Source: Candidatus Woesearchaeota archaeon | GTDB taxonomy: Archaea > Nanobdellota > Nanobdellia > Pacearchaeales > GW2011-AR1 | DNA length: 64,000 nucleotides | Assembly: GCA_964623495.1 (NCBI GenBank) | Contig: CAZUTV010000001.1 | Span: 44,682-108,681, forward strand | Reading direction: 5' to 3' | Shown here: positions 42,207 through 62,391 of the stretch, piece after piece | Position numbering within the stretch: the first letter of the stretch is position 1 | How the letters are laid out: each line of letters begins with the position of its first letter | The notes under the pieces: generated by a model | Databases searched by the model: none | The model's input: the letters and a program-made list of their open reading frames with translations, nothing else | What the model was told of the DNA's origin: nothing | Program-made: the position numbers and the translations under genes

Positions 42207-43196
42207 ATGGTTAAGAAAAAAAGAGGGAAAAAATCAAAGACGATACGAAAGCTTCCTAATTTAGATGATTTAAGCAAGAAAACAGAAAAGGAAAAGACAG
42301 TTGAAAGCCAAGAAAAAAAACCCATTTCTTCAAAAACCTTCAAAAAACCAAAGATTCATCTAAAACAGGAAAAGCCTAAGAAAAATTTAAATCCAAAAAA
42401 CTTTCCAAGTCTGCAGCTTAAGTCAGAGCATGATATTGCAATGGATTTTGCAGTTAAGGTCTATAAGAGATTTGACAAAATTATCAAGTCTGTTGTTCTT
42501 TTTGGCTCGACAGTAAAGCAGTCTGCTGTTGCAGGTTCAGACATTGACATTATAATAATCATAGATGATGTTGCAATAAAATGGGATCAGGAGCTTATTG
42601 CCTGGTACAGGGAAGAGCTCGAGAAAATTTTGCAAGTCAACCCTTATAAGTATGCATTGCACATAAACACAGTCAAGTTAAGCACCTGGTGGGAAGATGT
42701 AAGCAGAGGGGATCCTGTAGTTATAAATGTCTTAAGGCATGGTGAACCGATGCTGGATTATGCAGGATTCTTTGAGCCTTTAAAATATCTTTTGCTACAG
42801 GGAAAAATCCGACCTTCACCGGAAACAATTTACATATCTCTTCAAAGAGCCCCAACCCATTTAGCAAGAAGCAAAGCATCTGTATTGAGTGCAGTAGAAG
42901 GATTGTATTGGGCAATGGTTGATTCAGCTCATGCCGCCTTGATTGCAGCAAATATCCTTCCTCCTTCTCCAGAGCATCTTGCAATTGATTTAAGGGAGCA
43001 GTTTGTAAATGAAGGAAAATTAAACATGAAATATGTTGTCTGGTACAGAGACTTGCTAATGCTCCACAAAAAAATCAATCACGGAGAAATAAGGGACGTT
43101 AAAGGCTCTGATATTGACGCCTGGTATGACAGAACAAAAGAATTCATTGACGTCATGGCAAATTTAGTTAAAAATATTGTTGATAAGCAAGATTAA
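42207..43196 (+). CDS. Pol-beta-superfamily nucleotidyltransferase with C-terminal helical domain and Lys-rich N-terminal extension
   Basis: VLFGSTVKQSAVAGSDIDIIIIIDD (GS...DxD); paralogous to 47163-48968 (shared RPSPE region). Confidence 0.6.
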   Translation: MVKKKRGKKSKTIRKLPNLDDLSKKTEKEKTVESQEKKPISSKTFKKPKIHLKQEKPKKNLNPKNFPSLQLKSEHDIAMDFAVKVYKRFDKIIKSVVLFGSTVKQSAVAGSDIDIIIIIDDVAIKWDQELIAWYREELEKILQVNPYKYALHINTVKLSTWWEDVSRGDPVVINVLRHGEPMLDYAGFFEPLKYLLLQGKIRPSPETIYISLQRAPTHLARSKASVLSAVEGLYWAMVDSAHAALIAANILPPSPEHLAIDLREQFVNEGKLNMKYVVWYRDLLMLHKKINHGEIRDVKGSDIDAWYDRTKEFIDVMANLVKNIVDKQD

Positions 43197-44579: not shown

Positions 44580-44598
44580 ACTAGTATTTAAACCTTTC
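44580..44598 (-). promoter_or_regulatory. BRE/TATA element (GAAAGGTTTAAATACTAGT on minus strand)
   Basis: About 60-80 nt upstream of the start at 44519. Confidence 0.4.
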
Positions 44599-47162: not shown

Positions 47163-48968
47163 TTACAAAACAATTTCAAATTCTCCAAACTCTTTTTTTA
47201 TAAGGTCAAATAGTTTAGGATTAACTGCAAGATCTTTCCTTGTCTTTTGGTGCTCCATGGCCTCAGAAACTTCTTTCATATTTGAGGTTTCTATCTTGTC
47301 TGTTATTTTTTTAATTTCATTACCAATAAACAAAAAGCAGTTTCCTCCGGAAATCAAGAGTTCGGCAGTCCTGTCCTTAAAGATTATCTTCATCCTTCCC
47401 TTTTCAACACCCAATAGATCCTTTCTCTGAGAGAAATCAATAAGATCGTTCATAAGGATTGCAGATCCTTTTCTTACATCATCTGCTTTCTGCAGGCTTA
47501 GCTTCGCTTTCTTTGACTCTGTCTTGGCAGCAACTATCTCTTTAAGAATTCTTAGGTGTTGCTGCGTAAACTTGCCTTTCTTAACAAGCTTATTTTCAAA
47601 CTCATGCACAATATCCTGCTGTGAATTCTTTCCAGTAACTATCTTCAAAAGCTCAAAAACATCCTTATACACTTGATCTATGGTTTTTTCCTGCGCCTGC
47701 TTTTCAATCTGATCTCTTAACTCCTTAAGTCTTTTAAGATAATCCTCTGTATCTTTAAGCAGCTTATCAATTTCTTTTCCAGAAACTTCCTTTATCTTCT
47801 CGTGTTCATATCCCTTATAATACTTAATTGTAATCTCTTCAAGAATGTCAATGTATTTTTTTTCAAGCATCTTTTCCTTGTCAACAAAAACCCTCTTCAT
47901 TTCCTTAAAAGTTTCTTTTGTTGTTGGGGGAGGCATCCCATACAGCATTAACAAAGCCTGGCTTGGGGTTATAACACTCCAGTAAATATCCAATAACAGA
48001 ATATCCATTAAAGCCTTCTTAGCTCTCTTAATTGTGTTGTCTCCTGCAGACATGAACATGTCAATAGCTTCTGGAGAAGGTTTAAGCTTCCCCATTTTTA
48101 ATAATGCTTTCCATGGCATAAAGGTAGCTCGATCATAAAGAGGAACTCCGTCTCTTATAAATGTAAAAATAACCGGATGGGCATCCTTGACACTCTCCCA
48201 AAAGTCAGTCAAAAGATAAACTTGGATGTTAAGCATGTTGTTTTTGACTCCTGCAAGAGCAGCAGCCTCTGTCACATACTGGCCGACAATCATGCTCCTA
48301 AGCCTTTCCTTTAATTCAAGTCTTGGCATTCTCTTAACATCAGTATCATTAATGACAACAAAAACATCAACATCAGAGCTTTTTACAGTATCTCCTCTTA
48401 CAAAGCTTCCTGCAATAACGTAGCTTACAACATACTTGTCAAATTTCCTTAAAACAAGGGATTTGTGTATTTCAGCAACTCTTAAGCCTTGAAGTATTCC
48501 GGTATCATGAATTGGAAGAGACATTGCAATGGCGCCGATAAGCTCGAATTTGCTGTCAAAACAGATCTCCCATAAATCCACAGGAGTCTTAATCTGAAGC
48601 CAGATCTTTTGCTTAAGCTTTTCCTGCGTCAATTCAACTTGTTTAATGATTTCCTGCTTTATCTTTGGAATATTCTTAAATTGTTCTTCAGGAACCACCA
48701 TATACAAATGCAGGTATTTTTCAGTTTCCTTAGGAACTTCTTCCTCCTCAATAAAAAACTTAATTGCCTGGTTGTGAAGAATGCTTATGGATTGTGTGAA
48801 AGGATATTTTTTAACAATAAATCCTTTCAACTTATCCAGCTCTTTTCTTGTTTTCTCCATCTCTTTCTGCAGTTTTTCCTGATCGGGAGGCAATATATTT
48901 TTAGAACTATATTTATTATCCAGATTCATTTCAGGAATGTCTTGAGGAGAGTTATCATTCGAGGACAT
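47163..48968 (-). CDS. Pol-beta-superfamily nucleotidyltransferase with N- and C-terminal coiled-coil extensions (paralogue of 42207-43196)
   Basis: VIAGSFVRGDTVKSSDVDVFVVINDTD; shared downstream region PWKALLKMGKLKPSPEAI. Confidence 0.6.
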   Translation of the reverse strand: MSSNDNSPQDIPEMNLDNKYSSKNILPPDQEKLQKEMEKTRKELDKLKGFIVKKYPFTQSISILHNQAIKFFIEEEEVPKETEKYLHLYMVVPEEQFKNIPKIKQEIIKQVELTQEKLKQKIWLQIKTPVDLWEICFDSKFELIGAIAMSLPIHDTGILQGLRVAEIHKSLVLRKFDKYVVSYVIAGSFVRGDTVKSSDVDVFVVINDTDVKRMPRLELKERLRSMIVGQYVTEAAALAGVKNNMLNIQVYLLTDFWESVKDAHPVIFTFIRDGVPLYDRATFMPWKALLKMGKLKPSPEAIDMFMSAGDNTIKRAKKALMDILLLDIYWSVITPSQALLMLYGMPPPTTKETFKEMKRVFVDKEKMLEKKYIDILEEITIKYYKGYEHEKIKEVSGKEIDKLLKDTEDYLKRLKELRDQIEKQAQEKTIDQVYKDVFELLKIVTGKNSQQDIVHEFENKLVKKGKFTQQHLRILKEIVAAKTESKKAKLSLQKADDVRKGSAILMNDLIDFSQRKDLLGVEKGRMKIIFKDRTAELLISGGNCFLFIGNEIKKITDKIETSNMKEVSEAMEHQKTRKDLAVNPKLFDLIKKEFGEFEIVL

Positions 48969-50629: not shown

Positions 50630-51115
50630 TTAAGGAACTCTTCCTGAAATTGTTCCGCTTGCCTGCTGTGTTATCCCTCCAGCTCCTGCAGTGAAGTAAA
50701 CAGTAACATCGCCGTTAAACCTGGTGTCTGAAGTTAAAGCGGTTCCGTCGCATGCAACTGTCAAAGCTCCGGTTAAAGTTCCGTCAGCAACAGGACCAAC
50801 ATCTGCAAAGGTATCGGTTGCAGAATTAGTGCATCCTTCAATCTCTATATTTGAGATTGTTACTGCATCGCCAACACCATTCCTAAATTCTATCTGGATA
50901 TTTCCGGGTACTGGAGCAGCAGATATAGCCATACCTTCTGGATCAAATGGCTGGCTTAGAGTAAATCTATTTCCAGCAAGGTTTCCAGGACTTCCTATAA
51001 TATACCATAAAACTCCTACAACAATGATTGCAGCTAAAATTGCCCAACCATAAGTCATAAGAAACTCCATGGCCGCCTGTCCTCTTTTTCTTATCATAAT
51101 CATACCTCCTTTCAT
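50630..51115 (-). CDS. archaeal type IV pilin-like protein (class III signal peptide)
   Basis: IRKRGQAAMEFLMTYGWAILAAIIVVGVL; Gly/Thr-rich beta domain. Confidence 0.6.
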   Translation of the reverse strand: MKGGMIMIRKRGQAAMEFLMTYGWAILAAIIVVGVLWYIIGSPGNLAGNRFTLSQPFDPEGMAISAAPVPGNIQIEFRNGVGDAVTISNIEIEGCTNSATDTFADVGPVADGTLTGALTVACDGTALTSDTRFNGDVTVYFTAGAGGITQQASGTISGRVP

Positions 51116-51159
51116 CAGGTCAAATAAATCTTAACCTCTTATAATTTTATTATGGAAAA

Positions 51160-51177
51160 TTAGTATTTAAACATTTC
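51160..51177 (-). promoter_or_regulatory. BRE/TATA element (GAAATGTTTAAATACTAA on minus strand)
   Basis: About 50 nt upstream of pilin start 51115. Confidence 0.4.
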
Positions 51178-51187
51178 TCCCCATTTA

Positions 51188-52180
51188 CTAAGGAGTTAAT
51201 ATTCTACTAACCTGATATTTAATGTGATGCCTTACTGGTTCTGTGTCATCAATCCTAAACCACGATTGCATTCCAAAAACTCCCGAATGATGTATGTCTA
51301 TTTCTGTAAAATAAATATAATCTATGCAGGATTTTGTCATTACCGGAACGTCCTGTATTCTGAGCTCATCAATATTGACAAAACTCTCAATGCCGTTAGG
51401 ATCCGAAGAAAGATCTCCTTCAAGCCTTTTCAGAAAGCTCGGGGCATAAGTATTCTCCGCATAATATCCTTTATTAACGTGATCTTTTAGATTTGTAACA
51501 TCTCCTAACTCAGTCACATAATTTTCCTCATAAAAAGTTTTAGTTATCTTCCTCGATACTCTCCCTCCAGTATTCACAACAAACAAAGGATCTTCGAACT
51601 CAGTTATTGGAATATATGCAGAGATTACTTGCCTTTTGTCCCACCTAGCAAGACCTTCTTTATCTTCCATCACAAAATCAGAAATAAGGGAGAACTTAAC
51701 ATGCCACGGATCATCCTGGCTTACATTTATTATAGAATTGCTTATGTTAACCCGGACATTAATTTTCGCAGCATTTCTGTTTATAGAATCAAGAACATCT
51801 GCATAAGTCACTCCCTGAATGAGGCTTATATTTGCTTCTCCTTTAACTGTACCATTAAAAAATGCTTCGCTGAAAAAAGTATCTACATCAATATAATCCC
51901 CGGAAACCGCAATCTCGTTCTCTGCTACAAGAAGAATCCTAAACCCAGAAATATAAACTTGTCTTTCTAGATTCTTTTCCATTGAAAAAAGAAAATTATC
52001 CATTGTAGAAACTCTGGTAGTTATAGAATTTTTTTCCTTTACTAGGGAAAATATTTCAAAAGAAGCAAACATAAGCAAAATGAGTAGTATAGCAATTCCC
52101 GTAAAAAATTGGGATTTTTTATTTTGAATTAAATTGAATTTCATCATTTCCATGTCCTCACCTGAACTTCTGTCTCCCAC
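51188..52180 (-). CDS. pilus-locus membrane-anchored hypothetical protein
   Basis: N-terminal TM then extracytoplasmic domain; start may be the internal MKFNL. Confidence 0.45.
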   Translation of the reverse strand: MGDRSSGEDMEMMKFNLIQNKKSQFFTGIAILLILLMFASFEIFSLVKEKNSITTRVSTMDNFLFSMEKNLERQVYISGFRILLVAENEIAVSGDYIDVDTFFSEAFFNGTVKGEANISLIQGVTYADVLDSINRNAAKINVRVNISNSIINVSQDDPWHVKFSLISDFVMEDKEGLARWDKRQVISAYIPITEFEDPLFVVNTGGRVSRKITKTFYEENYVTELGDVTNLKDHVNKGYYAENTYAPSFLKRLEGDLSSDPNGIESFVNIDELRIQDVPVMTKSCIDYIYFTEIDIHHSGVFGMQSWFRIDDTEPVRHHIKYQVSRILTP

Positions 52181-54741
52181 GCAAACGGAATTCCAGAAAC
52201 CTCGACAGAATTTATTGAAAGATCGTTCTCCGAGAACTTAGTTTCAATCTTGCCATTTAAATTAAGATCCATTTCCTGCAAAAGCTTAAAGACAGCATTG
52301 TTAATAGCATCATTTTCATCATAAGACTGTAATGACGAAGTATAAGAGCAACTGCCTGAACCAGAATAATTTGATGGAACTTTAAAAGTAGAGGTGGTCC
52401 CATCTTCAAATTCCACTTCCCATTCACATCCGTTAGCAAATGGAAGTATGGCAGTGTAAGAAGAAATTTCTTTTAAAACCGAGTAAATAACTTTGTTGTA
52501 AGGTGATCCTGCGCTAGCGTTAAAGGGATTCAGACCAACACCCACCCTTACAGAATTATTTCCCACATTAATAAGCGATGGAGGGATATTAACCATATAC
52601 GGATCTCCAAGTTTAGTAAAATTAACCCCATACTCTCCAAGATCAAAAATATTATCCCAGGTTCCGGTCACATTATTATATTTCTCAACCTTGCTCGTCC
52701 ACTTTGATCCAGAATAAGAAACAACCTTTGCGTCATAAGGGGCTGTATCATTTGGAACAAAGAAACTTCCTTGTGAAAGATTATTGTTAAATTCAGGGGT
52801 TTCTGAAACAACAACCAACCCGTATGGAATGCTTTCTTTATAGCTTATATTAATATATGAATCTGGATAAAGCCGCGTATTTATTCCTTCCCCGACAATT
52901 GTTTGTTCTACATAGGCTGCCTGAATAACATCGCTGGCAACCTGCCTATAAATGCTTTCTAGCTGGCTTACATTCACGAAATAATAGTTTCCGTGCCCGC
53001 AATTAGCGATATCTTCCATAACCTGCCGATTAATATTGCTCCCAAATCCAATTGCATAAACTTTTATAGAATAATTATTATATGCTGCACAGGCCGCATT
53101 AACTGCCCATTGTTGATCAAGAGCATCACTTATTCCCCCAGACCAATCACCTCTAGACCCTGAGCCGCTATAATCTGTATAACTATTACAATAATAGGTA
53201 GGTGCTCCATCACTCATAACAACTATCGACCTTGATTTGCTTGAATTTGACTGCGTTGCAAGCATATTTACGGCCCTATTAATACCGCAGCAAATACAGG
53301 TTCCTCCTGTTGCACTCCAAGAATCGACTTCTGCTTTAAGGCTGACATTATTAGTAGAAAGGGCATGCGTGTTTGAAAGAAGGGCGCTTGTGCTGTATGC
53401 TGCAAGACCAACCCTATTAATTGAAGAATTAAGAACAATATCCACAAATAACTTTGTTGCGTTCTTTGATTCCCCGATCTTATCTTCATAAATTCCGCCG
53501 CACTCTCCGCATCTTGTTGCATTATTAACACACCAACCACAACTAGAATTACAGCAAGAACTTCTCCCACAAGTAACCCCGCTGCATGTCGATGCCATGC
53601 TTCCGCTTATATCGTTAGTGGAAATAACATCTGCGGGCAGAGTAACATTAAAAGTATAAGAAGCATTTACAAACCCAACCCTAAAAGGAATGGTTTTGTC
53701 TTCAAGAGTCGAATAATCCAACAAGGAGGATAAATAGGCGTTATCAAGGCTAATATTTACAATTTGCCCGCTGCTATTCCCCTGATAAACAGTTTTATTT
53801 CCTATCATAAAAAATATGTCGTAAGAGCTGTTATAACGAAGTAGAGATTCTATTCTTGTTATTGTAGAGGGAATATAAAAACTATCGTATAAATTTATAA
53901 GCCCATCAATGCCTGGAAAATTTTTTCTCCCGTTAAGATAAGGAACGTTGGAATAAATTATCTTAATAAATCCTCCAGCAACGTAAAGTGTGCCATTGAA
54001 AGATTTAAATTCGAAATAATTGTCTCCACTAACAAAGTTCGAGGAATAAGGAGATAAATCTATTTTATACGGAACATTTGGATTAGGATTAAAAACCCCA
54101 ACATTCACATTATTTATAGATAGATTAAATGGTCTAGAAAAAACTCCTTCGATGTTTCCATCAATAATCTCCCCAGTAATTTTTACAGTTATATTTCCAT
54201 CACCGACATAACCACCAAAATAAAAATAATCTACTTTATTTGCAGAAGACAAAAATGCTCTTGCAGAATAGCCTTTTGTTGCGTTCCCCTGTTGAATCCC
54301 GCTGATTATCTGCCTGGAGGTATAAATTGTATCTGCATCATTATACGGACTTACTTCGGACTTTGCAATCTCGGTGTTTCCAAAATACAATCCGAGGTTT
54401 TTGCTTAGATTCAAGCCATCAAGTATAGAATCGGCAAGCATATTTGCTGCAGCATCGTTATTGGCGTAAAATTCTCCGAGTTGATCAAGAACAGACTGAT
54501 TAAGGTTAGTGATATTTCCAGAAGCAATTAACTGTTTTGCATATGAATTGTCTATTTCTCCGATTTTAATTGAAGAAAGAGAGATTATAAGGTCTTCTTG
54601 CAGATGTGTCTCGTACTGAACTTGAGAATGCTGTGGTTTTATAAAAAGAACGACCCCAAGAATCAGCAGCAGAGCTATCAAAGCATCCACGCTGAAATAG
54701 TAGGCTTTTTTATTTTTTTTAAAATTTAGCATTTTAGTCAT
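52144..54741 (-). CDS. large pilin-like adhesin with von Willebrand factor A domain
   Basis: Class-III-like N-terminus KKAYYFSVDALIALLLILGVVL; MIDAS DISGSM and IVVMSDGAPT; many Cys; about 865 aa. Confidence 0.65.
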   Translation of the reverse strand: MTKMLNFKKNKKAYYFSVDALIALLLILGVVLFIKPQHSQVQYETHLQEDLIISLSSIKIGEIDNSYAKQLIASGNITNLNQSVLDQLGEFYANNDAAANMLADSILDGLNLSKNLGLYFGNTEIAKSEVSPYNDADTIYTSRQIISGIQQGNATKGYSARAFLSSANKVDYFYFGGYVGDGNITVKITGEIIDGNIEGVFSRPFNLSINNVNVGVFNPNPNVPYKIDLSPYSSNFVSGDNYFEFKSFNGTLYVAGGFIKIIYSNVPYLNGRKNFPGIDGLINLYDSFYIPSTITRIESLLRYNSSYDIFFMIGNKTVYQGNSSGQIVNISLDNAYLSSLLDYSTLEDKTIPFRVGFVNASYTFNVTLPADVISTNDISGSMASTCSGVTCGRSSCCNSSCGWCVNNATRCGECGGIYEDKIGESKNATKLFVDIVLNSSINRVGLAAYSTSALLSNTHALSTNNVSLKAEVDSWSATGGTCICCGINRAVNMLATQSNSSKSRSIVVMSDGAPTYYCNSYTDYSGSGSRGDWSGGISDALDQQWAVNAACAAYNNYSIKVYAIGFGSNINRQVMEDIANCGHGNYYFVNVSQLESIYRQVASDVIQAAYVEQTIVGEGINTRLYPDSYINISYKESIPYGLVVVSETPEFNNNLSQGSFFVPNDTAPYDAKVVSYSGSKWTSKVEKYNNVTGTWDNIFDLGEYGVNFTKLGDPYMVNIPPSLINVGNNSVRVGVGLNPFNASAGSPYNKVIYSVLKEISSYTAILPFANGCEWEVEFEDGTTSTFKVPSNYSGSGSCSYTSSLQSYDENDAINNAVFKLLQEMDLNLNGKIETKFSENDLSINSVEVSGIPFAWETEVQVRTWK

Positions 54742-55189
54742 AAAGATAAAGATTAAATTTAGAGGGTTTATTTTTGTAAAGAACAATTCTCGTAACCTGA
54801 ACAAGATTTTCTACTTCTCCTGGGCCGGCTAAACCGACATGACTCTCTGGATTTCCTTGAATTGTCAGATTCTGAATGGTGAAATAAAAATGATTTCTAG
54901 ATCCAACAAAATTCTTCAAGCCAGAATAATTAAGGTATACTTCATCCAGCTTTGATTGATTAACCTGATTTTCATTTAGAATTCCGAATTCCCCTTCGCT
55001 TAGTATAAGATCTGCTGCAAGGTTCCCCTCATAAAAGAGCTCATCTAATTTGTTCTTTGATTGGGACGAGTAATTTACTGCATAAACATAGAGTATAACT
55101 ATCCCGGAGATAAATATTACGCTTGCTATAACCAAGTCAAAACTCCAGGTTTGTGCTCTTTTGTTTTTAATTGAGGTAAACGCTTCCAT
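54734..55189 (-). CDS. minor pilin-like protein (class III signal peptide)
   Basis: KRAQTWSFDLVIASVIFISGIVIL. Confidence 0.55.
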   Translation of the reverse strand: MEAFTSIKNKRAQTWSFDLVIASVIFISGIVILYVYAVNYSSQSKNKLDELFYEGNLAADLILSEGEFGILNENQVNQSKLDEVYLNYSGLKNFVGSRNHFYFTIQNLTIQGNPESHVGLAGPGEVENLVQVTRIVLYKNKPSKFNLYLYD

Positions 55190-55562
55190 TTTGTTTTCTT
55201 ATAAGGTTGTCTCCTTTACTTATGTTCCCAATAACTTCTGGAATTTTATAAGTAAGATGAAAATTATCCAGGCTAGCAAAAAGAAAAGTCTCTGTGATAT
55301 TTATTTTATAATTTTTGCCTAAAATGTTCTCTGGAATTTTAAATGTCCGCGAATAGCCATCAGAAGCTTCTGAAGCTATGCTTATTTCTTCCTGTGCATT
55401 TAGGGCTATATTCTGGAGCAGTATCTTCTCTTTCTCTTGGTTCTTCTCGCTTATATTGCCTTGGATGATGGTAAAAAAAGTGACAAAGAAAAAAAGAACA
55501 AACCCAAAGATTATAGCAAATTCTGCAGCACTCTGCGAGTGCTTCACCCCCTTTTTTATCAT
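55167..55562 (-). CDS. minor pilin-like protein (class III signal peptide)
   Basis: HSQSAAEFAIIFGFVLFFFV. Confidence 0.5.
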   Translation of the reverse strand: MIKKGVKHSQSAAEFAIIFGFVLFFFVTFFTIIQGNISEKNQEKEKILLQNIALNAQEEISIASEASDGYSRTFKIPENILGKNYKINITETFLFASLDNFHLTYKIPEVIGNISKGDNLIRKQNGSVYLN

Positions 55563-55755
55563 AAAAGGATATAGGAATTAAGATATATAAAATTAAGCAT
55601 TTAATTTGCAGAAGCATGGCATCCGAAGATGTCATGTCAAACACGTAAGTGCCCGAACAAGAAAAATCTCCTGCCTTCTGCAGAGATAATAAAATGCTTT
55701 TGTATTTAAATTTTTGGATAATTAGGTTTATATATTTAGATTAGTTATTTATCTT

Positions 55756-56370
55756 ATGGGAAAAGCCATAGACATCATACTGATAATCCTTATAGCAATA
55801 GTGATAATTACAATAGCAGGGGTATTTTTCTTAAACAATAATGCAGATAATTTTTTTGGCATTGACAACGATCAAACCATAAACGACGACCAGGATGTTA
55901 ACGGAGATTTTCCAACCTATCCTGATGAAGAACCAGAAAGTGAACCAAACTCTTCAGGATCAAGCTCTAGCGGAAGCAGTGGAGGCGGTGAAAGCAATCC
56001 GGGAGGAAATATAAATCCAATTACAGGATGTGCTACTTCCTCTATTTCTTACTCAATAGAAGATATAACTATAGAAGAAACCTGCAATTTTTACAATAAT
56101 GAGATATGCACAGATAAAACAGTTACCTGCTCTGCAGAGATTCACAACCTTGACTCAGAATCTGATGGAATATTCAAAGTAATACTTAAATTCATGGAAG
56201 GAGACATGGCAAATGGAATTATTCTTGAATCAAAATCCAGGGAATTTTCTGTTCCTGCAGGACAATTCGAGATATTCATGGAAACAATAAATCTTCTGGG
56301 GGAAGAAGCCGGCAAGCAACTCAACTGCTTTTACAATACCGAAGAACCTCCAAGCACAGACCCGTGTTAG
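55756..56370 (+). CDS. membrane-anchored Cys-rich extracellular protein
   Basis: N-terminal TM; Ser/Gly linker; 8 Cys. Confidence 0.4.
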   Translation: MGKAIDIILIILIAIVIITIAGVFFLNNNADNFFGIDNDQTINDDQDVNGDFPTYPDEEPESEPNSSGSSSSGSSGGGESNPGGNINPITGCATSSISYSIEDITIEETCNFYNNEICTDKTVTCSAEIHNLDSESDGIFKVILKFMEGDMANGIILESKSREFSVPAGQFEIFMETINLLGEEAGKQLNCFYNTEEPPSTDPC

Positions 56371-56822
56371 CTTATTAAAACATAGCTTTGCTTTGCTTCT
56401 AAAGTGATCTTCTTTATTCCAGGCGTGTTTGTAATGCCTCCCTGCAGAGGAACATTACTATTATAGGCTCTTTTATTGGTGGTTGTACTCACCGTCGTTG
56501 TTATAAAGATATAATCTGCATTCACTTCTATACTTTGAACGCCTTCTGGCAGATAAAGACTTATTGTTGTTTTGCTCGGCTCGCCTGCAAAAAAGACATT
56601 TTCTGCAGAGTTAATTACCTGGGTTGCAAAACTCTCTATCTGGTTAAGCCTAATTTGGTCATTAATCCTATTAGAATAGAAAAAAGCAACAGTAAGTATT
56701 GAAAGTATAGCAAAGGTTATGAATCCAACAACAATCAAATATTCAACGCCAACTTGCGAACGTTTGCACGAGGCAATCCAAACGCAGGTGCTGGCGCGAG
56801 TTGAGCCTCTTTTCTTCATCAT
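56367..56822 (-). CDS. pilin-like protein (class III signal peptide)
   Basis: SQVGVEYLIVVGFITFAILSIL. Confidence 0.5.
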   Translation of the reverse strand: MMKKRGSTRASTCVWIASCKRSQVGVEYLIVVGFITFAILSILTVAFFYSNRINDQIRLNQIESFATQVINSAENVFFAGEPSKTTISLYLPEGVQSIEVNADYIFITTTVSTTTNKRAYNSNVPLQGGITNTPGIKKITLEAKQSYVLIS

Positions 56823-56878
56823 TTTTTATTTTTAAAAAGGTTTATTTATTGTAGATACTTGGTTTTAGAAACCTTTTT

Positions 56879-56895
56879 TGAAAAGGTTTATATAA
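56879..56895 (+). promoter_or_regulatory. BRE/TATA element GAAAAGGTTTATATAAC embedded in a palindrome
   Basis: About 50 nt upstream of ATG 56947. Confidence 0.35.
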
Positions 56896-56946
56896 CTACA
56901 CTCCTATTTAGAAATGAAGAATATATAAACATTTTTAATAAACATA

Positions 56947-57443
56947 TGGGGAAAAAAAGGCTGATAATTTTAGGACTCTTTGTCTTGTTATTTTCTGGAA
57001 TAAATCTTTACTTATATTTTAACCAAGGGAATAATTCCTATTCCAAAATTTCCGGATTATTCATGGAAGACTTGCAGGAAGGAATGAACCTTTCAGTAAT
57101 AATCTTTATAGGCCAGTGGGTTTTATTATTGGCTATTGTTTTATTTGCCTACACGAGGTTCCTTAGGCACAAAAGAGAGCAGGAAGAGGTCAAACCTATA
57201 GAATGTAATATTCAGCCCTCTGGAACAGGATCAGAAACAGAATTAGACTGTTTATACAAACTATTGCAGGAAAAAAAGAGATTAAGTATAGACACTATTG
57301 CAAAATCCTTTAATGTTTCAAAAGAAAAAGCATTGGAGTGGGCGAAGATACTGGAGAACAGCGAGCTGGTTACCATAGAATATCCTGCATTCAATGATCC
57401 AGAAGTTAAGATCATAAAAAAAGAGGAAGAATCAAAAGAATAA
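56947..57443 (+). CDS. membrane-tethered winged-helix protein
   Basis: Two TM segments then C-terminal wHTH (RLSIDTIAKSFNVSKEKALEWAKILENSELV); track start 56859 is TTG inside the promoter. Confidence 0.45.
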
Positions 57444-57444
57444 A

Positions 57445-59166
57445 ATGGGTGTTGTAAAAAAACAAGTAAAGAAGGAGGATAAAGAGCTTGAAATTTGGGT
57501 ATCAGAAGCAATAAAAAAAGGTTATAGTCCCCAGCAAATAAAAAAAATTCTTTCAGACCAGAAATACCCTCAGGGGCAGATATCTAAAATCCTCTCAGTG
57601 TACAACAAAATAGAATCAATAATTGCTGCCCCGAAAAAAGTAGAGGTTCAGCCAAAAATACAGGAAGGAAAGGGGAGCATAAGAGAAAGCTACCGTCTTG
57701 AAATTGACGGGGCAAAGATAGACATAGAAATTCAAAAAACCAACGAAGGCCTAGTTTATAATGTAAAGATTCCAAGCATTGATATTGGAACAAAGGCTCT
57801 ATTAGATGAAATAAGAAAAGACCTTATCACTATCACAGCAATTGGCGTTGGCGAAATAATTGACCAAAAATCCGTTTCTAGGATGAAGAATAAATTCATG
57901 AGTGATGCCTCAGACCTAATAAAAGAAAAGCTTCCCAGAATAAAGAAGGAAACAGAAGATTTTCTTATTGGGGTTTTAATGCAGGAAATGCTTGGGCTTG
58001 GAAAAATTGAATTCTTAATCAATGACCCAAATCTTGAAGAAATTGTAATTGTAAACAGCAAGGAAACAAGAGTTTATCATAAAAAATACGGATGGTTACT
58101 AACAAACATAACTCTGGCCTCTGAAGACGAAGTGACAAATTACGCAAACATTATTGCAAGAAGAGTTGGAAGACAGATCAGCATTTTAAACCCTCTTCTA
58201 GATGCGCACGTTGTTACCGGAGATAGAGCCAACGCGGTTTTATATCCTATTTCCACAAAAGGGAATACAATCACAATAAGAAAATTCGCAAGAGATCCCT
58301 GGACAATAATTGATTTAATAGAAAATAAAACCGTCAGCAAAGAAATTGCGGCAATCTTATGGCTGGGAATAGAATACGAGATGAACATCATTTTTTCAGG
58401 CGGAACAGCCTCTGGAAAAACAGTTTTCCTTAATGCATGCATGCCTTTTATTCCTCCAAACCACAGAGTAATTAGTATAGAAGATACAAGAGAGCTAATG
58501 CTGCCAAGATTCCTTTATTGGTGCCCCCTAGTTACAAGAACTCCAAATCCAGAAGGCAAAGGGGAAGTCTCTATGCTAGATTTATTAGTAAACTCTCTTA
58601 GAATGAGGCCGGACAGAATCGTCGTTGGAGAAATCAGAAGGCAAAGAGAGGCAGAGGTTCTTTTTGAGGCAATGCATACCGGACACAGCGTTTACTCCAC
58701 TCTCCATGCAGATACAGCAAGCGAAACAATCAGAAGATTGACAAACCCCCCGATAAATGTCCCTCCTTCAATGCTGAGCAGCGTCAACCTAAATATAGTA
58801 ATGTTCAGGGACAGAAGAAAAGGTTACAGGAGAGTTATTCAGGTTGGAGAGTTTATGGCAGGAAAAGATACATATATAGCAAATCTCATCTACAGATGGG
58901 TTCCGGAAAAAGACCAGTTTGTACAGCACAACAAAAGCCTTTCTTTCTTTGACCAAATAAGCAGAAACACAGGAATGAGCCAGATTGAAATAGACAAGAA
59001 CCTAGAATATAAGAGATCTATTTTTGATTGGCTTATTAAAAATAAAATCCGCGATTTAGAATCTTTCGGAAAAGTGATGAACCTGTATTATACTGATCCA
59101 GAAGAACTTAAATCAATAATAAAAAATAATTTGACAAATAAGATACTGGAAAGAAAGGGGGATTAA
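57445..59166 (+). CDS. FlaI/PilB-like secretion ATPase (archaeal type IV pilus/archaellum assembly ATPase)
   Basis: Walker A FSGGTASGKT, Asp box ISIEDTRELML, Walker B and His box; about 150-aa N-terminal extension. Confidence 0.85.
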   Translation: MGVVKKQVKKEDKELEIWVSEAIKKGYSPQQIKKILSDQKYPQGQISKILSVYNKIESIIAAPKKVEVQPKIQEGKGSIRESYRLEIDGAKIDIEIQKTNEGLVYNVKIPSIDIGTKALLDEIRKDLITITAIGVGEIIDQKSVSRMKNKFMSDASDLIKEKLPRIKKETEDFLIGVLMQEMLGLGKIEFLINDPNLEEIVIVNSKETRVYHKKYGWLLTNITLASEDEVTNYANIIARRVGRQISILNPLLDAHVVTGDRANAVLYPISTKGNTITIRKFARDPWTIIDLIENKTVSKEIAAILWLGIEYEMNIIFSGGTASGKTVFLNACMPFIPPNHRVISIEDTRELMLPRFLYWCPLVTRTPNPEGKGEVSMLDLLVNSLRMRPDRIVVGEIRRQREAEVLFEAMHTGHSVYSTLHADTASETIRRLTNPPINVPPSMLSSVNLNIVMFRDRRKGYRRVIQVGEFMAGKDTYIANLIYRWVPEKDQFVQHNKSLSFFDQISRNTGMSQIEIDKNLEYKRSIFDWLIKNKIRDLESFGKVMNLYYTDPEELKSIIKNNLTNKILERKGD

Positions 59167-59173
59167 TTCTAAG

Positions 59174-60055
59174 ATGAATAGATTTCAGATTCCTTTTACC
59201 CTTGCAGACATAGAGATTCAAAAAAGAAAAAGCAAGAGATTTATAAAATTCGCCAGCGCAAAAAAAACAAAGCTGGATGAATATCTAAAAGCAGCCAATG
59301 TTAATCTTAATAAAAGAGAATATCTTGCAATATGCTACAGAAGATTTTTAATAAACATTATTAGCTTCTCAGTAATAGCCTCCTCTGTTCTTGGAATTTT
59401 AAGGACAAGCCTCTTTCCTGTTTACGGATTCATAATTTCTCTGTTGATATCCGGCCTGGTTTATTTTAATCAGATAAATTATCCAAAAGTATATACCTTA
59501 AACAAACAAAGGGATGTAGACAAAAACCTTATTCCTGTGCTTCAGGATATGATAGTTCAATTAAATTCAGGAGTTCCCATATTCAGAATTCTCTCTAATA
59601 TCTCTGAATCAGATTACGGGGAAGTTAGCGTGGAATTCAAAAAAATAGTAAAGGAGATTAATTCGGGGGTTTCCCAGATTGATGCAATAGAAAAGCACGC
59701 AAAACTTAATACTTCCGAGTATTTCAAAAGAGTTTTGTGGCAGATCAGCAACGGCATGAGGGCTGGAAGCGACATGGAAATTGTCATAAAAGAAGGAATA
59801 AAGAATTTAAGTGACGAACAAGCAATCCAAATCCAGACCTACGGAAATAGGTTAAACCCTTTAATTATGTTTTACATGTTAATTGCAGTTATAATTCCTG
59901 CATTGGGAATAACTTTCCTTATCATTCTTGCATCTCTTCTAGGATTTCCCGAAAAAGTAATTCATCTTATATTTGTAGTTATCTTTGTGATAGTTGTATT
60001 TATGCAGATAATGTTTCTTGGATTAGTCAAATCAAGGAGGCCAAGTTTATTATGA
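59174..60055 (+). CDS. FlaJ/TadC-like membrane protein, single T2SSF domain
   Basis: T2SSF cytoplasmic domain plus 3 TM. Confidence 0.7.
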   Translation: MNRFQIPFTLADIEIQKRKSKRFIKFASAKKTKLDEYLKAANVNLNKREYLAICYRRFLINIISFSVIASSVLGILRTSLFPVYGFIISLLISGLVYFNQINYPKVYTLNKQRDVDKNLIPVLQDMIVQLNSGVPIFRILSNISESDYGEVSVEFKKIVKEINSGVSQIDAIEKHAKLNTSEYFKRVLWQISNGMRAGSDMEIVIKEGIKNLSDEQAIQIQTYGNRLNPLIMFYMLIAVIIPALGITFLIILASLLGFPEKVIHLIFVVIFVIVVFMQIMFLGLVKSRRPSLL

Positions 60056-60149
60056 TAAATAAAGAATATTTTTGTACTAACTTCCATCAGAGGCAACTAA
60101 GGGAAGTTGGCGCGGATGCTGGATTGAAAACCCGCAGGAGGTTTTCAAT

Positions 60150-61112
60150 ATGAATACGCTAAAGTTTTACCCCAGACAATTAAGAGAGTCTTATGAAAAA
60201 AATATTAAAAATGCAGGAATTGAAAATCCTCCTGAAAAGTACCATAACTTTATTTTTTATATAACTCTAATGCTTGCCGTGATTTCAATGGGATTCTTTG
60301 CAATAATAGGGATGACCATATATTTTTCCTTGGTTGTGTTTATCTTCTTGAATGCATTTATCTACTTTAAAATAAGTTTGAAGGCAAGCGCCAGAATAAA
60401 AAAAATGGAAACTATATTTCCGGACGTTATTTCACTAATGGCAAGCAATCTTCGTTCAGGAATGACAATAGATAAATCCTTTCTTTTGGCTGCACGTCCA
60501 GAATTTGATCCCTTGGATAAAGAAATATTAAAAACCGGAAAAGAAATAACTACAGGCCAGGACATAATATTTGCGCTAAAAAGACTTGGGATAAGAGTAA
60601 ACTCTGAGAAAATCTCAAAAGTCGTGACTTTAATAATCTCAGGATTAAGGGCAGGAGGAAATATCTCTGACTTGTTAGACCAAACATCAAAGAACATGAA
60701 AGAAAAAGAGATTATTGAAAAAAAGGCAAGATCAACTATTTTAATGTATGTTATCTTCGTATTTTTTGCAGTTGGGGTGGGAGCGCCAATACTTTTCGGG
60801 TTAAGCTCAATCCTGGTGGAGATTGTTATGGCGTTAACTTCAAAGCTGCCTGAGGCGGCAACCGCAAGTACAAATCTGCCTTTATCATTTAAGGAAATAT
60901 CCATATCTCCAAGTTTTGTCATTTACTTTTCATTATTCTTTATAGCAGTTACAGACCTGATCTCCTGCATAGTAATAGGTTTAGTAAACAAGGGGGAGGG
61001 AAAGGCAGGATTAAGGTATTTCCTACCCTTACTTGCAGTAAGTTATGTTCTGTTCTTTATAATTAGGTCTTTACTGTCAAAGACACTAGTAAGCTCCTTA
61101 TCAGTAATATAG
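60150..61112 (+). CDS. FlaJ/TadB-like membrane protein, single T2SSF domain
   Basis: T2SSF domain plus TM. Confidence 0.7.
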   Translation: MNTLKFYPRQLRESYEKNIKNAGIENPPEKYHNFIFYITLMLAVISMGFFAIIGMTIYFSLVVFIFLNAFIYFKISLKASARIKKMETIFPDVISLMASNLRSGMTIDKSFLLAARPEFDPLDKEILKTGKEITTGQDIIFALKRLGIRVNSEKISKVVTLIISGLRAGGNISDLLDQTSKNMKEKEIIEKKARSTILMYVIFVFFAVGVGAPILFGLSSILVEIVMALTSKLPEAATASTNLPLSFKEISISPSFVIYFSLFFIAVTDLISCIVIGLVNKGEGKAGLRYFLPLLAVSYVLFFIIRSLLSKTLVSSLSVI

Positions 61113-61140
61113 TAGAGTTTAAAAAACTCTTAAACATAGA

Positions 61141-61971
61141 TTGAATATGAAAAAAAAGAGGAAAGAAAAACCTAGAAAAAAATTGCACAAGAAAAAACCC
61201 GTTATTAAAAAGGAAAAGCACAAGAAATCCCGGCATTTTACAAAAGAAGAAAAAATAACCAAGGACACTGTAACGGAAAGAGTTTCTTCCGGAATCCCAA
61301 AGTTTGACCAAATGACTCAGGGGGGCTTTGAAAGAAACTCAATAAATCTGCTTGCCGGCGGCAGTGGCAGTGGAAAAACAATCTTCTCCATACAATTTTT
61401 ATTAGAAGGCGTCAGAAGAGGGGAAAAAGTTCTTTATATCACCTTTGAAGAAAAAAAAGAGGAGTTTTATAGAAATATGAAGAAGTTTGGATGGAATCTT
61501 CAAAAAGCAGAAGACTCGGGAAATTTTATTTTCTTGGAATACTCCCCGGAAAAAGTTAAGATGATGTTGGACGAAGGCGGGGGAACAATAGAAACAACCG
61601 TGTTAAAGTACAACATTTCAAGACTTGTAATTGACAGTGTGACGAGTTTTTCGTTGTTATTTGGGGATGAGCTATCCAAAAGACAGGCTGTTCTTGGATT
61701 GTTTGATATTATAAGGAAATGGAATTGTACGAGCCTCCTCACAATACAGCACAACCCATCCAGCACAATTGACAGAGGAATTTCCCCTGCAGAATTCGAG
61801 GCAGACAGTATCACTCTTCTTTATTATGTTAAAGTTGGAGCAAGAAGAAAAAGATTCTTGGAGGTGTTAAAGATGCGCGGCACAGACCACTCAAAAGAAA
61901 TCCACAATTATATGATAAAGAAGGGAATCCAGATAGGCAGCATTTCTAATGTGAGATTGTTTGACGAGTAA
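61141..61971 (+). CDS. KaiC/FlaH-like RecA-superfamily ATPase with Lys-rich N-terminal extension
   Basis: Walker A LAGGSGSGKT, Walker B LVIDSV. Confidence 0.75.
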   Translation: MNMKKKRKEKPRKKLHKKKPVIKKEKHKKSRHFTKEEKITKDTVTERVSSGIPKFDQMTQGGFERNSINLLAGGSGSGKTIFSIQFLLEGVRRGEKVLYITFEEKKEEFYRNMKKFGWNLQKAEDSGNFIFLEYSPEKVKMMLDEGGGTIETTVLKYNISRLVIDSVTSFSLLFGDELSKRQAVLGLFDIIRKWNCTSLLTIQHNPSSTIDRGISPAEFEADSITLLYYVKVGARRKRFLEVLKMRGTDHSKEIHNYMIKKGIQIGSISNVRLFDE

Positions 61972-62264: not shown

Positions 62265-62391
62265 TGCGCGGACCGGGAATCGGACCCGGGTCACCTCGTC
62301 TTTGCATTTTTGCTTCTTTGAGCGCCGAACTTTCTTTCTAAAGAAAGTTGGGCATTGGCAACGAGATATTCTACCATTAAACCATCCGCGC
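62265..62391 (-). tRNA. tRNA-Gly (GCC) with about 54-nt intron in the anticodon loop
   Basis: Perfect acceptor GCGCGGA/TCCGCGC and T-arm CCGGG-TCCGATT-CCCGG; anticodon stem TCTCG...CGAGG interrupted after TTGCCA by an insert with an internal hairpin. Confidence 0.7.

What the first reader, a model, noticed from the sequence alone, without database searches (positions are those of the whole stretch)
50630..61971. Type IV pilus locus with split FlaJ, a KaiC-like ATPase and a vWA adhesin
The locus encodes a FlaI-like ATPase with a long N-terminal extension. It has two separate single-T2SSF-domain membrane proteins, where archaeal FlaJ/TadC are usually one two-domain protein. A KaiC/FlaH-like ATPase carries a 40-aa Lys-rich leader. 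There are at least five class-III-signal pilin-like genes and an about 865-aa pilin-fronted vWA (MIDAS) protein, a likely tip adhesin. For a putative episymbiont, this is the obvious host-attachment apparatus.
Basis: partly seen in the sequence, partly recalled or inferred. Interest (0 to 1): 0.5.

Follow-up and report, generated by a model that had tools for sequence, protein, structure and literature searches.

The report
Conserved DPANN type IV pilus locus

Summary
Window 50630-61971 carries a motor operon on the plus strand: a membrane winged-helix protein, a FlaI/VirB11-family ATPase, two single-T2SSF platform genes and a KaiC-like ATPase. The minus strand carries six prepilin-like genes, one of them an 862-aa vWA/MIDAS pilin.

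The cluster is not a one-off. The ATPase has relatives in at least 587 species-representative genomes. Among the 80 best loci (Nanoarchaeota, Pace- and Woesearchaeota), 21 of 37 loci of 20 kb or more hold all 11 gene families.

The "unusual" features are known:
- Split platform genes define Epd-like and Tad pili and occur in euryarchaeal Clade 1 and 2 systems.
- KaiC-family ATPases are recorded as associated with type IV pili.
- vWA pilins have TadG and PilY1 as parallels.
- DPANN islands with TadB and TadC have been published.

Corrections:
- The ATPase N-terminal "extension" is only about 50-70 residues of variable basic tail.
- The KaiC-like protein is not ArlH/FlaH.
- No prepilin peptidase lies in the window.

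Two components remain uncharacterised. One is the membrane-tethered winged-helix protein, adjacent to the ATPase in 70 of 72 loci. The other is a 319-aa pilin with no solved structural relative.

Verdict: a new member of a known kind, of modest interest.

In passing I found a 74-nt four-way-junction RNA with strong covariation and no Rfam family.

The parts
50630..51115 (-). pilA161: predicted major pilin (161-aa ORF). Its class-III-like N-terminus reads RKRG|QAAMEFLMTYGWAIL.
   Evidence: The N-terminal 25 residues are almost invariant in 45 orthologues. The gene has its own BRE/TATA-like motif at 51164-51176. It is the last gene of the pilin block and sits after a 72-nt gap. PF04021 Class_IIIsignal scores only E=0.45. 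The major-pilin role is an inference.
51188..52147 (-). p330: large pilin-like protein, 319 aa from the ATG at 52147 (the mechanical ORF runs to 52180). Predicted cleavage site KKS|QFFTGIA.
52144..54732 (-). vWA pilin, 862 aa from the ATG at 54732 (the ORF runs to 54804). It has the KKA|YYFSVDAL N-terminus, a vWA domain with a complete MIDAS motif, and a Cys-rich insert. Predicted tip adhesin.
   Evidence: PF00092 gives E=1e-8, 36.1 bits against a cut-off of 23.8. DxSxS, T and D are conserved in orthologues and the Cys-rich insert is variable. There are 29 N-x-S/T sequons against 14.4 expected, and 16 Cys. No PDB sequence relative was found.
54734..55189 (-). pil151a: minor pilin-like protein (KRA|QTWSFDL).
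   Evidence: The N-terminal motif is conserved in 42 orthologues. The gene is overlapped by or abuts its neighbours.
55167..55562 (-). pil131: minor pilin-like protein (KHS|QSAAEF).
   Evidence: The motif is conserved in 47 orthologues. There is a weak DUF7266 hit only.
55756..56370 (+). p204: lineage-specific insertion. It has an N-terminal membrane anchor, a Ser/Gly linker and a Cys-rich C-terminal domain. It is not a core component.
   Evidence: It is found in only 7 of the 80 loci, and in the metagenome loci L082-L085. It has no Pfam family.
56367..56822 (-). pil151b: minor pilin-like protein (KRS|QVGVEYLIVVGF). It is divergent from the motor operon.
   Evidence: The motif is conserved in 53 orthologues. 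There is a BRE/TATA-like motif at 56864-56876 on the minus strand.
56946..57443 (+). p194: 165 aa from the ATG at 56946 (the mechanical ORF starts at 56859). It has two transmembrane helices and a cytoplasmic winged-helix domain. Predicted membrane docking or scaffold partner of the ATPase.
   Evidence: It is adjacent to the ATPase in 70 of 72 loci. Its stop codon lies 1 nt before the ATPase ATG. The start position follows the orthologue alignment. In the AlphaFold2 model the winged helix has pLDDT about 90. Foldseek matches MarR/ArsR-type winged helices at E about 2e-3. The domain has a net charge of about -1. The family has 1367 representatives and no Pfam model.
57445..59166 (+). Assembly ATPase of the VirB11/FlaI/TadA family, 573 aa.
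   Evidence: T2SSE gives E=9e-34, and PilB3_C gives 23.7 bits against a cut-off of 27. PDB matches are A. fulgidus GspE2 at 2e-69, FlaI at 7e-58 and CpaF at 1e-47. The Walker A, Asp box, Walker B and His box are conserved. The FlaI equivalog scores 300 bits against a cut-off of 550.
59174..60055 (+). Platform protein 1: a single T2SSF domain corresponding to the N-terminal half of a two-domain ArlJ/UpsF-type platform.
   Evidence: PF00482 gives E=5e-17. The protein aligns to ArlJ profile positions 2-171 of 465 and to UpsF positions 29-246 of 484.
60150..61112 (+). Platform protein 2: a single T2SSF domain corresponding to the C-terminal half.
   Evidence: PF00482 gives E=1.5e-15. The protein aligns to ArlJ profile positions 192-461 of 465. 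It is 23% identical to platform protein 1, E=8e-9. The pair is split in essentially all loci.
61141..61971 (+). Single-domain KaiC-like (RecA-fold) ATPase with a Lys-rich N-terminal tail of about 45 aa.
   Evidence: PF06745 gives E=3e-56. PDB matches are KaiC domains, PH0284, PH0186 and SSO2452, with no FlaH structure at E<1e-5. Walker A, the FEE catalytic glutamates, Walker B and the KMRGT.H motif are conserved. The gene lies immediately downstream of platform protein 2 in 36 of 63 loci and somewhere in the locus in 53 of 63.
56882..56894 (+). BRE/TATA-like promoter motif AAAGGTTTATATA, about 50 nt upstream of the p194 ATG.
   Evidence: This is the only exact match to a motif that occurs 18 times in the window against 6.8 expected, mostly just upstream of genes. 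Promoter function is inferred.

Best explanation
The locus encodes a complete assembly machine and subunit set for a non-archaellar archaeal type IV pilus. It belongs to the lineage that includes the euryarchaeal Clade 2 (PilB3-type) systems, the Epd-like systems and the bacterial Tad systems.

Shown here:
- A five-gene plus-strand operon encodes p194, a VirB11/FlaI-family ATPase, two single-T2SSF proteins and a KaiC-like ATPase.
- p194 is a membrane protein with two transmembrane helices and a cytoplasmic winged helix.
- The ATPase has intact catalytic boxes.
- The two T2SSF proteins are collinear with the N and C halves of a normal two-domain platform.
- The KaiC-like ATPase has an intact Walker A, Walker B and catalytic glutamates.
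- The minus strand encodes six proteins with conserved class-III-type N-termini. One of them is an 862-aa vWA/MIDAS protein.
- The same 11 gene families travel together in dozens of Nanoarchaeota, Pace- and Woesearchaeota genomes.

Inferred:
- A prepilin peptidase encoded elsewhere cleaves after [KR][GAS].
- The two half-platform proteins form a heterodimer that takes the place of the pseudo-dimeric ArlJ/PilC.
- The ATPase hexamer docks on this platform and drives insertion of pilA161, the major pilin, which has its own promoter.
- The four smaller pilins and p330 prime assembly and carry the glycosylated, disulfide-rich vWA pilin at the tip. There its MIDAS site binds a ligand on a host cell or surface.
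- The KaiC-like ATPase acts on the cytoplasmic face as a modulator of the motor, as ArlH does in the archaellum.
- p194 tethers the ATPase or ATPases to the membrane through its acidic winged helix.
For: Domain assignments come, and structural relatives of the ATPase and the KaiC-like protein. Catalytic motifs are conserved across about 60 orthologues.

Platform protein 1 matches ArlJ profile positions 2-171 and platform protein 2 matches positions 192-461, so the pair looks like a fission in the native order. The two are paralogous.

Class-III-like N-termini are conserved in all six pilin families. The MIDAS residues are conserved. The vWA protein has twice the expected number of N-glycosylation sequons and 16 Cys.

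Synteny:
- The ATPase was found in at least 587 species genomes.
- p194 is adjacent to the ATPase in 70 of 72 loci.
- All 11 families are present in 21 of 37 long loci.

Gene junctions are tight: there is 1 nt between p194 and the ATPase and 7 nt between the ATPase and platform protein 1. Promoter-like motifs lie ahead of the motor operon, pil151b and pilA161.

The literature places each feature in known systems: PMC4858521, PMC6668835, PMC6393860 and PMC9563170.
Against: - No A24 prepilin peptidase was found among the membrane-rich ORFs of the window. None appears as a recurrent family within about 10 kb of the 80 related loci.
- The formal Pfam Class_IIIsignal match is below threshold, E=0.45. 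Cleavage is therefore inferred from motif resemblance.
- The head domain of p330 has no solved relative, and p194 has no characterised homologue.
- The predicted major pilin, about 150 aa when mature, is not short as in Epd and Tad pili.
- No TadZ/MinD-like ATPase is in the locus.
- Nothing here shows a filament, adhesion, or that the organism is an episymbiont.
Confidence: 0.8

Rival explanations
1. The same machine serves mainly as a DNA- or nutrient-uptake (competence-like) pilus and not as an adhesin. It would capture extracellular DNA for an organism that lacks nucleotide biosynthesis.
For: The DPANN literature speculates that pili import DNA or nutrients (PMC9563170; PMC9938205). Strongly basic tails are present on both ATPases, but these are cytoplasmic.
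Against: No ComEC-, DprA- or DNA-receptor-like gene recurs in the 80 loci. The largest conserved surface component is a vWA/MIDAS protein, which is a typical protein or ligand adhesin. No pilin with a recognisable DNA-binding patch was identified.
Confidence: 0.1
2. The locus encodes a short pseudopilus or a bindosome-like surface-assembly or secretion device, not a long filament. The many "pilins" would be membrane-anchored surface proteins placed by the ATPase and platform.
For: Five of the six class-III proteins look like minor pilins or large surface proteins. Archaea do use type IV pilus machinery for the bindosome, and the BasE model scores 147 bits.
Against: The BasE score is far below its cut-off of 1000. 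No substrate-binding proteins with class III signals lie in the locus. There is a highly conserved small pilin with its own promoter, as expected for a filament subunit.
Confidence: 0.07
3. The locus is a divergent archaellum (a rotary motility filament), suggested by the combination of a FlaI-like ATPase and a KaiC/FlaH-like ATPase.
For: The best NCBIfam model for the ATPase is FlaI, E=4e-89. A RecA/KaiC-fold partner is encoded in the operon, as ArlH is in archaellum operons.
Against: - FlaI scores 300 bits against a cut-off of 550, and ArlH scores 54 bits against 215.
- No FlaH structure appears among the PDB hits.
- The platform is split into two genes.
- No archaellin, ArlF/G, ArlC/D/E or ArlX family hit was found in any locus protein.
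- A vWA adhesin is part of the conserved set.
Confidence: 0.03

Closest known systems
Euryarchaeal "Clade 2" type IV pili (Haloferax volcanii PilB3/PilC3- and PilB4-type systems; Makarova, Koonin and Albers 2016, PMC4858521)
   Same: - A VirB11-family ATPase with a PilB3-like C-terminal region.
- Often two tadC-like platform genes.
- KaiC-family ATPases encoded in or next to the operon.
- A system-specific set of major and minor pilins.
- A few Nanoarchaeota were already placed in this ATPase clade.
   Different: The pilin families here have no detectable similarity to the PilA and arCOG02911 families, as far as the tools available could show. A membrane-tethered winged-helix protein is strictly linked to the ATPase. 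The adhesin is a vWA pilin. Clade membership was not tested by phylogeny.
Epd pili of Methanococcus maripaludis and bacterial Tad/Flp (type IVc) pili (Denise et al. 2019, PMC6668835)
   Same: - Two single-T2SSF platform genes that arose by fission of a two-domain gene.
- Pilins with Gln at +1 and an acidic residue at +5 (Epd/DUF361-type motif; recalled from my own knowledge of Szabo et al. 2007).
- A vWA-containing pseudopilin, TadG in Tad systems.
- An adhesive function.
   Different: - The predicted major pilin is about 150 aa, not short.
- No TadZ/MinD-type ATPase is in the locus.
- The gene order here is N-half then C-half.
- A KaiC-like ATPase and p194 are present.
- There are no secretin or other outer-membrane parts.
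Archaellum motor core (ArlI/ArlH/ArlJ)
   Same: The overall logic is the same: a FlaI-family ATPase, a RecA/KaiC-fold ATP-binding partner and a polytopic T2SSF platform.
   Different: All three proteins score far below the equivalog cut-offs. The KaiC-like protein keeps the canonical catalytic glutamates and Walker B. The platform is split. There are no archaellins and no ArlF, G, C, D, E or X.
vWA-bearing pilus tip proteins: PilY1 of Pseudomonas/Myxococcus type IVa pili (PMC9210963, PMC7541494) and modular vWA pilins of Gram-positive bacteria
   Same: A large vWA/MIDAS module is delivered by the pilus machinery together with a set of about four minor pilins that prime assembly. The expected role is adhesion or surface sensing.
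   Different: Here the vWA module is fused behind a class-III signal and pilin helix. It carries a Cys-rich insert next to the MIDAS motif. No sequence relative is found in the PDB.
Published DPANN type IV pilus islands (Makarova, Wolf and Koonin 2019, PMC6393860 Fig. 2A; Nanohaloarchaeota and Undinarchaeota Tad-like clusters, PMC9563170)
   Same: DPANN loci with the ATPase, TadC, TadB and unannotated signal-peptide proteins interpreted as pilins. Some clusters also contain kaiC.
   Different: Those reports do not describe the 11-family conserved set, the p194 family, p330 or the vWA pilin of the Pace/Woese lineage, as far as the text I could search shows.

Membership tests
Type IV filament superfamily (archaeal type IV pilus) | VirB11/PilB-family hexameric ATPase with Walker A, Asp box, Walker B and His box | tested here: met
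   T2SSE E=9e-34. PDB relatives are GspE2, FlaI and CpaF. The motifs SGGT.SGKT, EDTREL, RPDRI..GE and HTGH are conserved.
Type IV filament superfamily (archaeal type IV pilus) | Polytopic platform protein or proteins with a T2SSF domain | tested here: met
   PF00482 E=5e-17 and 1.5e-15.
Type IV filament superfamily (archaeal type IV pilus) | Subunits with class III signal peptides: a short basic leader, cleavage after G/A/S, then a hydrophobic helix | tested here: inconclusive
   The motif is visible and conserved in six orthologue families. PF04021 scores only E=0.45, 11 bits against a cut-off of 23.7. No FlaFind-type predictor was available.
Type IV filament superfamily (archaeal type IV pilus) | A24-family prepilin peptidase in the genome | tested here: inconclusive
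   None was found among the membrane-rich ORFs of the 64-kb window. None recurs within about 10 kb of the 80 loci. The rest of the genome could not be read.
Epd-like / Tad (type IVc) clade | Two homologous platform genes, each with one T2SSF domain (fission of the two-domain gene) | tested here: met
   The criterion comes from PMC6668835.
Epd-like / Tad (type IVc) clade | Short major pilin | tested here: not met
   The predicted major pilin is a 161-aa ORF, and orthologues have a median of 153 aa.
Epd-like / Tad (type IVc) clade | TadZ/FleN/MinD-type ATPase associated with the system | tested here: not met
   No such family is among the recurrent families of the 80 loci. It may be encoded elsewhere, as is usual for the archaeal stand-alone gene.
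Epd-like / Tad (type IVc) clade | ATPase and platform fall inside the Epd/Tad clade in a phylogeny | not tested
CpaF is a weaker PDB match than GspE2 and FlaI.
Euryarchaeal Clade 2 type IV pilus (PilB3/PilB4 type) | PilB3-like C-terminal domain on the ATPase | tested here: inconclusive
   PF23989 scores 23.7 bits against a cut-off of 27 for the window protein. Precomputed PF23989 hits exist for many close homologues.
Euryarchaeal Clade 2 type IV pilus (PilB3/PilB4 type) | Two tadC-like genes and a KaiC-family ATPase in or next to the operon | tested here: met
   The criterion comes from PMC4858521.
Euryarchaeal Clade 2 type IV pilus (PilB3/PilB4 type) | PilA-family major pilin and arCOG02911 minor pilin | not testable with these tools
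   No arCOG profiles were available. The locus pilins have no Pfam or NCBIfam hits. A separate PilA-like ORF exists at 32239-32682.
Archaellum | ArlI equivalog | tested here: not met
   NF058587 scores 299.7 bits against a cut-off of 550.
Archaellum | ArlH equivalog | tested here: not met
   NF052589 scores 54.3 bits against a cut-off of 215. No FlaH structure appears among the PDB hits.
Archaellum | Single two-domain ArlJ, archaellins, ArlF/G and ArlC/D/E or ArlX | tested here: not met
   The platform is split. ArlJ scores 25-27 bits against a cut-off of 400. No archaellin or Arl accessory hit was found in any locus protein.
KaiC-like single-domain ATPases (PH0284/PH0186/SSO2452 type) | PF06745 KaiC domain with Walker A, paired catalytic Glu and Walker B | tested here: met
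   190.8 bits against a cut-off of 26.6. PDB hits are 2dr3, 2zts and 2w0m at 1e-23 to 1e-27. The motifs G..G.GK, FEE, DS.T and KMRGT.H are conserved. The NCBIfam archaeal KaiC subfamilies all score below their cut-offs.
vWA/MIDAS adhesin domain | vWA fold with MIDAS residues DxSxS...T...D | tested here: met
   PF00092 scores 36.1 bits against a cut-off of 23.8. D[LI]S[GS]SM, GGT-CICCG and MSDG are conserved in orthologues. Metal or ligand binding cannot be tested here.

The most novel reading that the evidence does not exclude
The Pace/Woesearchaeota cluster could be a distinct motor variant of the archaeal type IV pilus. In it, the uncharacterised p194 would be the membrane anchor or stator-like scaffold for the ATPase. 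It would do the job that GspL/PilM-N or ArlX do elsewhere, acting together with a catalytically competent KaiC-like hexamer.

p194 has two transmembrane helices and an acidic winged helix. Its family has 1367 representatives and no Pfam model. It is adjacent to the ATPase in 70 of 72 loci.

If true, this would define a new accessory module of type IV filament machines. It might also couple pilus activity to a KaiC-type phosphorylation switch.
Probability: 0.25. Interest if true: 0.5.

Novelty: new member of a known kind. Interest (0 to 1): 0.3.

Why it matters
DPANN archaea of the Pace/Woesearchaeota lineages are abundant and mostly uncultured, and they are thought to live attached to other cells. 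This 11-gene cluster is among their most widely conserved surface machineries, so it is the natural first candidate for a host-contact organelle. Its vWA pilin is a concrete target for binding or localisation studies.

The value lies in cataloguing and guiding experiments, not in a new principle. The individual design features (split platform, KaiC partner, vWA pilin) are already in the literature. The two uncharacterised conserved parts, p194 and p330, and the unannotated structured RNA next to the pilin genes are the pieces most likely to repay further work.

Tried and rejected
- **Archaellum reading:** rejected on NCBIfam cut-offs and on the absence of archaellins and Arl accessories.
- **FlaH identity for the KaiC-like gene:** rejected.
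- **Prepilin peptidase in the window:** ten membrane-rich or unannotated ORFs were scanned and none is an A24 peptidase. Clustering all ORFs of the 80 loci revealed no recurrent peptidase or other extra component.
- **PDB sequence searches:** these found nothing meaningful for platform protein 1, the p194 profile (only spurious rhodopsin transmembrane matches), the p330 profile or the vWA pilin.
- **Foldseek for p194:** only generic winged helices.
- **AlphaFold database (afdb50) fold search:** the library was unavailable.
- **p194 as a DNA-binding regulator:** considered less likely because the winged helix is net acidic or neutral, with a recognition-helix charge of 0. It is not excluded.
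- **Pfam Class_IIIsignal on isolated N-termini:** below threshold.
- **Makarova 2017 KaiC paper (PMC5717392):** could not be read.
- **Rfam for the intergenic RNA:** no match.

Full report
**What is in the sequence**

The ORF map of 47-64 kb and the Pfam and NCBIfam scans show two divergent gene blocks.

On the plus strand:
- p194, 56946-57443 from the ATG supported by orthologues.
- A 573-aa T2SSE ATPase, 57445-59166 (E=9e-34).
- Two single-T2SSF membrane proteins, 59174-60055 and 60150-61112 (E=5e-17 and 1.5e-15).
- A KaiC-domain ATPase, 61141-61971 (E=3e-56).

Spacers are 1, 7, 94 and about 30 nt, so this is an operon.

On the minus strand:
- pil151b, 56367-56822.
- pil131, 55167-55562.
- pil151a, 54734-55189.
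- The vWA protein, 52144-54732.
- p330, 51188-52147.
- pilA161, 50630-51115.

A lineage-specific plus-strand gene, p204 (55756-56370), is inserted between pil151b and pil131. The finding's coordinates match the outer gene ends exactly.

**Source and distribution**

The identical ATPase lies on a 66.7-kb JGI metagenome contig next to a thermosome gene. GC content is about 35%.

The ATPase has more than 7,900 database homologues. The named ones are Nanoarchaeota, Pacearchaeota or Woesearchaeota proteins at 60-75% identity. A scan of one genome per species found at least 587 loci, and the best 80 were fetched.

tblastn and ORF clustering across these 80 loci gave the following:
- The ATPase is present in 80 loci.
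- p194 is adjacent to the ATPase in 70 of 72 loci.
- Both platform genes are present in 73-76 loci.
- The KaiC-like gene is present in 53 of 63 loci that extend far enough, and immediately downstream of platform protein 2 in 36 of them.
- The six pilin families are present in 35-58 loci.
- All 11 families are present in 21 of 37 loci of 20 kb or more.
- The block pil151a-vWA-p330-pilA161 moves as a unit. It sits either upstream on the opposite strand or downstream of the KaiC-like gene.
- No other family recurs in more than 12 loci.

**The motor**

The ATPase is closest to A. fulgidus GspE2 (2e-69), then FlaI (7e-58), then CpaF (1e-47). Its catalytic boxes are conserved.

FlaI residues 20-460 align to query residues 69-513. 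The "long N-terminal extension" is therefore about 50-70 residues. In orthologues this region is a variable basic tail with a median of 59 aa and 30% K+R.

The FlaI equivalog scores 300 bits against a cut-off of 550.

Platform protein 1 aligns to ArlJ profile positions 2-171 of 465 and to the first half of UpsF. Platform protein 2 aligns to ArlJ positions 192-461. The two are 23% identical and are split in essentially every locus. This is the fission described for Epd-like and Tad systems (PMC6668835). It is also noted for euryarchaeal Clades 1 and 2 (PMC4858521).

**The KaiC-like ATPase**

This is a single RecA/KaiC domain with Walker A, the paired catalytic glutamates (FEE), Walker B and the KMRGT.H motif all conserved.

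PDB relatives are KaiC domains and the single-domain archaeal proteins PH0284, PH0186 and SSO2452. No FlaH structure appears at E<1e-5. ArlH scores 54 bits against a cut-off of 215. It is therefore KaiC-like, not FlaH.

Its Lys-rich leader is a lineage-wide but length-variable feature.

Association of KaiC-family ATPases with type IV pilus loci, including Clade 2, is documented (PMC4858521). kaiC-containing pilus clusters have also been reported in DPANN (PMC9563170). An ArlH-like modulatory role is an inference by analogy.

**p194**

Orthologue alignment sets the start at M30.

The AlphaFold2 model gives two transmembrane helices, a basic linker and a winged helix with pLDDT about 90. Foldseek finds only generic MarR/ArsR-type winged helices at E about 2e-3.

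The domain is net acidic or neutral, with a median charge of -1 and a recognition-helix charge of 0. Together with strict adjacency and a 1-nt junction to the ATPase gene, this favours a protein-docking role over DNA binding. Neither role is shown.

A profile search of 1.84 billion representatives finds 1367 members, 672 of them at E of 1e-10 or better. There is no Pfam family.

**The pilins**

All six families keep a short basic leader, a G/A/S residue, then Q (Y in the vWA protein) and a hydrophobic helix. An acidic residue sits at +5 or +6, except in p330 (QFFTGIA). The motif is conserved across orthologues.

pilA161 has a nearly invariant N-terminus, KKGQAAMEFLMTYGWAIL. It also has its own BRE/TATA-like motif. 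I therefore take it as the major pilin.

The vWA protein has a conserved MIDAS motif and a variable Cys-rich insert. It has twice the expected number of N-glycosylation sequons and 16 cysteines. This is consistent with an exposed adhesin.

The formal Class_IIIsignal Pfam hit is below threshold. No A24 peptidase is in the window or recurs near the related loci.

**Comparison and verdict**

Each feature that made the locus look unusual is a recorded property of the Epd/Tad and Clade 2 family of archaeal type IV pili. DPANN islands with TadB, TadC and "dark-matter" pilins have been shown before (PMC6393860).

The locus fails every archaellum test. I could not run the phylogeny needed to choose between Clade 2 and Epd-like membership. 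The long major pilin and the absence of a TadZ-like gene argue against a strict Epd/Tad assignment.

The cluster is best described as a new, very widespread member of a known kind. It has two uncharacterised conserved accessories, p194 and p330.

Host attachment is plausible but untested.

**Side observation**

Between pil131 and p204, on the minus strand, lies a 74-nt RNA (55608-55681). It folds as a perfect four-way junction with three tetraloop hairpins, at -38.8 kcal/mol and z=-5.3.

A covariance model and one metagenome pattern scan gave eight distinct copies. Seven are at the same place in this pilus cluster. One lies next to a toxin-antitoxin-like pair in an unrelated context.

97% of cells are paired, against 39-49% for slid controls. 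16 of 31 pairs show compensatory changes, and there is an invariant G·U pair.

No Rfam family matches. A TATA-like box upstream and an oligo-T run downstream suggest an independent small RNA gene. Its function is unknown.

Noticed in passing
window 55608-55681, minus strand (covariance-model hit 55596-55694); also L003 7377-7475, L004 5722-5819, L005 8153-8251, L083 337-435, L084 8784-8882, L085 1504-1602, L086 823-922: An unannotated 74-nt structured RNA: a 7-bp closing stem and three perfect hairpins with tetraloops, forming a four-way junction.
- Folding energy is -38.8 kcal/mol, z=-5.3.
- Eight distinct copies are known. 97% of cells are paired, against 39-49% for slid controls. 16 of 31 pairs carry compensatory changes.
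- It sits about 45 nt upstream of pil131 and about 75 nt from p204 in seven pilus loci. In L086 it lies beside a toxin-antitoxin-like pair in an unrelated context.
- No Rfam family matches.

Its identity is unknown. It is the size of a tRNA but is not tRNA-like.
   Followed up: yes
window 62265-62391, minus strand: Rfam finds a 127-nt tRNA match (48.8 bits against a gathering score of 29). Its length suggests a tRNA gene with an intron. It lies between the KaiC-like gene and the EamA transporter gene. ARAGORN did not report it.
   Followed up: no
window 32239-32682, minus strand: A stand-alone 147-aa ORF with a different, PilA-like class-III N-terminus (MINNKRG|LSTVVTTLIIILLVLVAIG), far from the pilus locus. 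It has no Pfam hit. It may be a second pilin type assembled in trans.
   Followed up: partly
window 5360-6061 and 6126-6599, minus strand: A membrane-anchored DsbA/thioredoxin-like protein (E=1e-38), followed by a small two-TM protein with a CxxxxC-type motif. This suggests extracytoplasmic disulfide formation, which would fit the Cys-rich vWA pilin and p204.
   Followed up: no
window-wide, e.g. 56882-56894(+), 56864-56876(-), 55722-55734(+), 51164-51176(-), 14334-14346(-), 34603-34615(-), 44585-44597(-): The motif AAAGGTTTATATA (up to 2 mismatches) occurs 18 times against 6.8 expected. Most copies lie just upstream of genes. It looks like the organism's BRE/TATA promoter consensus.
   Followed up: partly
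ATPase residues about 17-50 (window 57493-57594); also ATPase orthologues in L002-L005, L008 and L042, and the KaiC-like orthologue in L008: A short helical motif (GYSxxxIkkiLxxxxYxxxxIxxIL) recurs inside the otherwise low-complexity basic N-terminal tails of the pilus ATPase. In one locus it also appears in the tail of the KaiC-like ATPase. It could be a shared docking element.
   Followed up: no
window 47163-48968(-) and 42207-43196(+): Two proteins with minimal nucleotidyltransferase (Pol-beta-type) domains. The 601-aa one lies just outside the pilus locus and is syntenic in L002 and L005.
   Followed up: no
L055, L057, L063, L068, L075, L079 and other more distant Woesearchaeota loci: More distant loci keep the motor genes but carry alternative pilin-like families in place of part of the pilin set seen here. 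One is a 273-aa family (MKKTRLNKKAMFYTISL...) and another a 142-aa family (NKKGIIFALDSAIAII...). This points to modular exchange of pilin sets.
   Followed up: no
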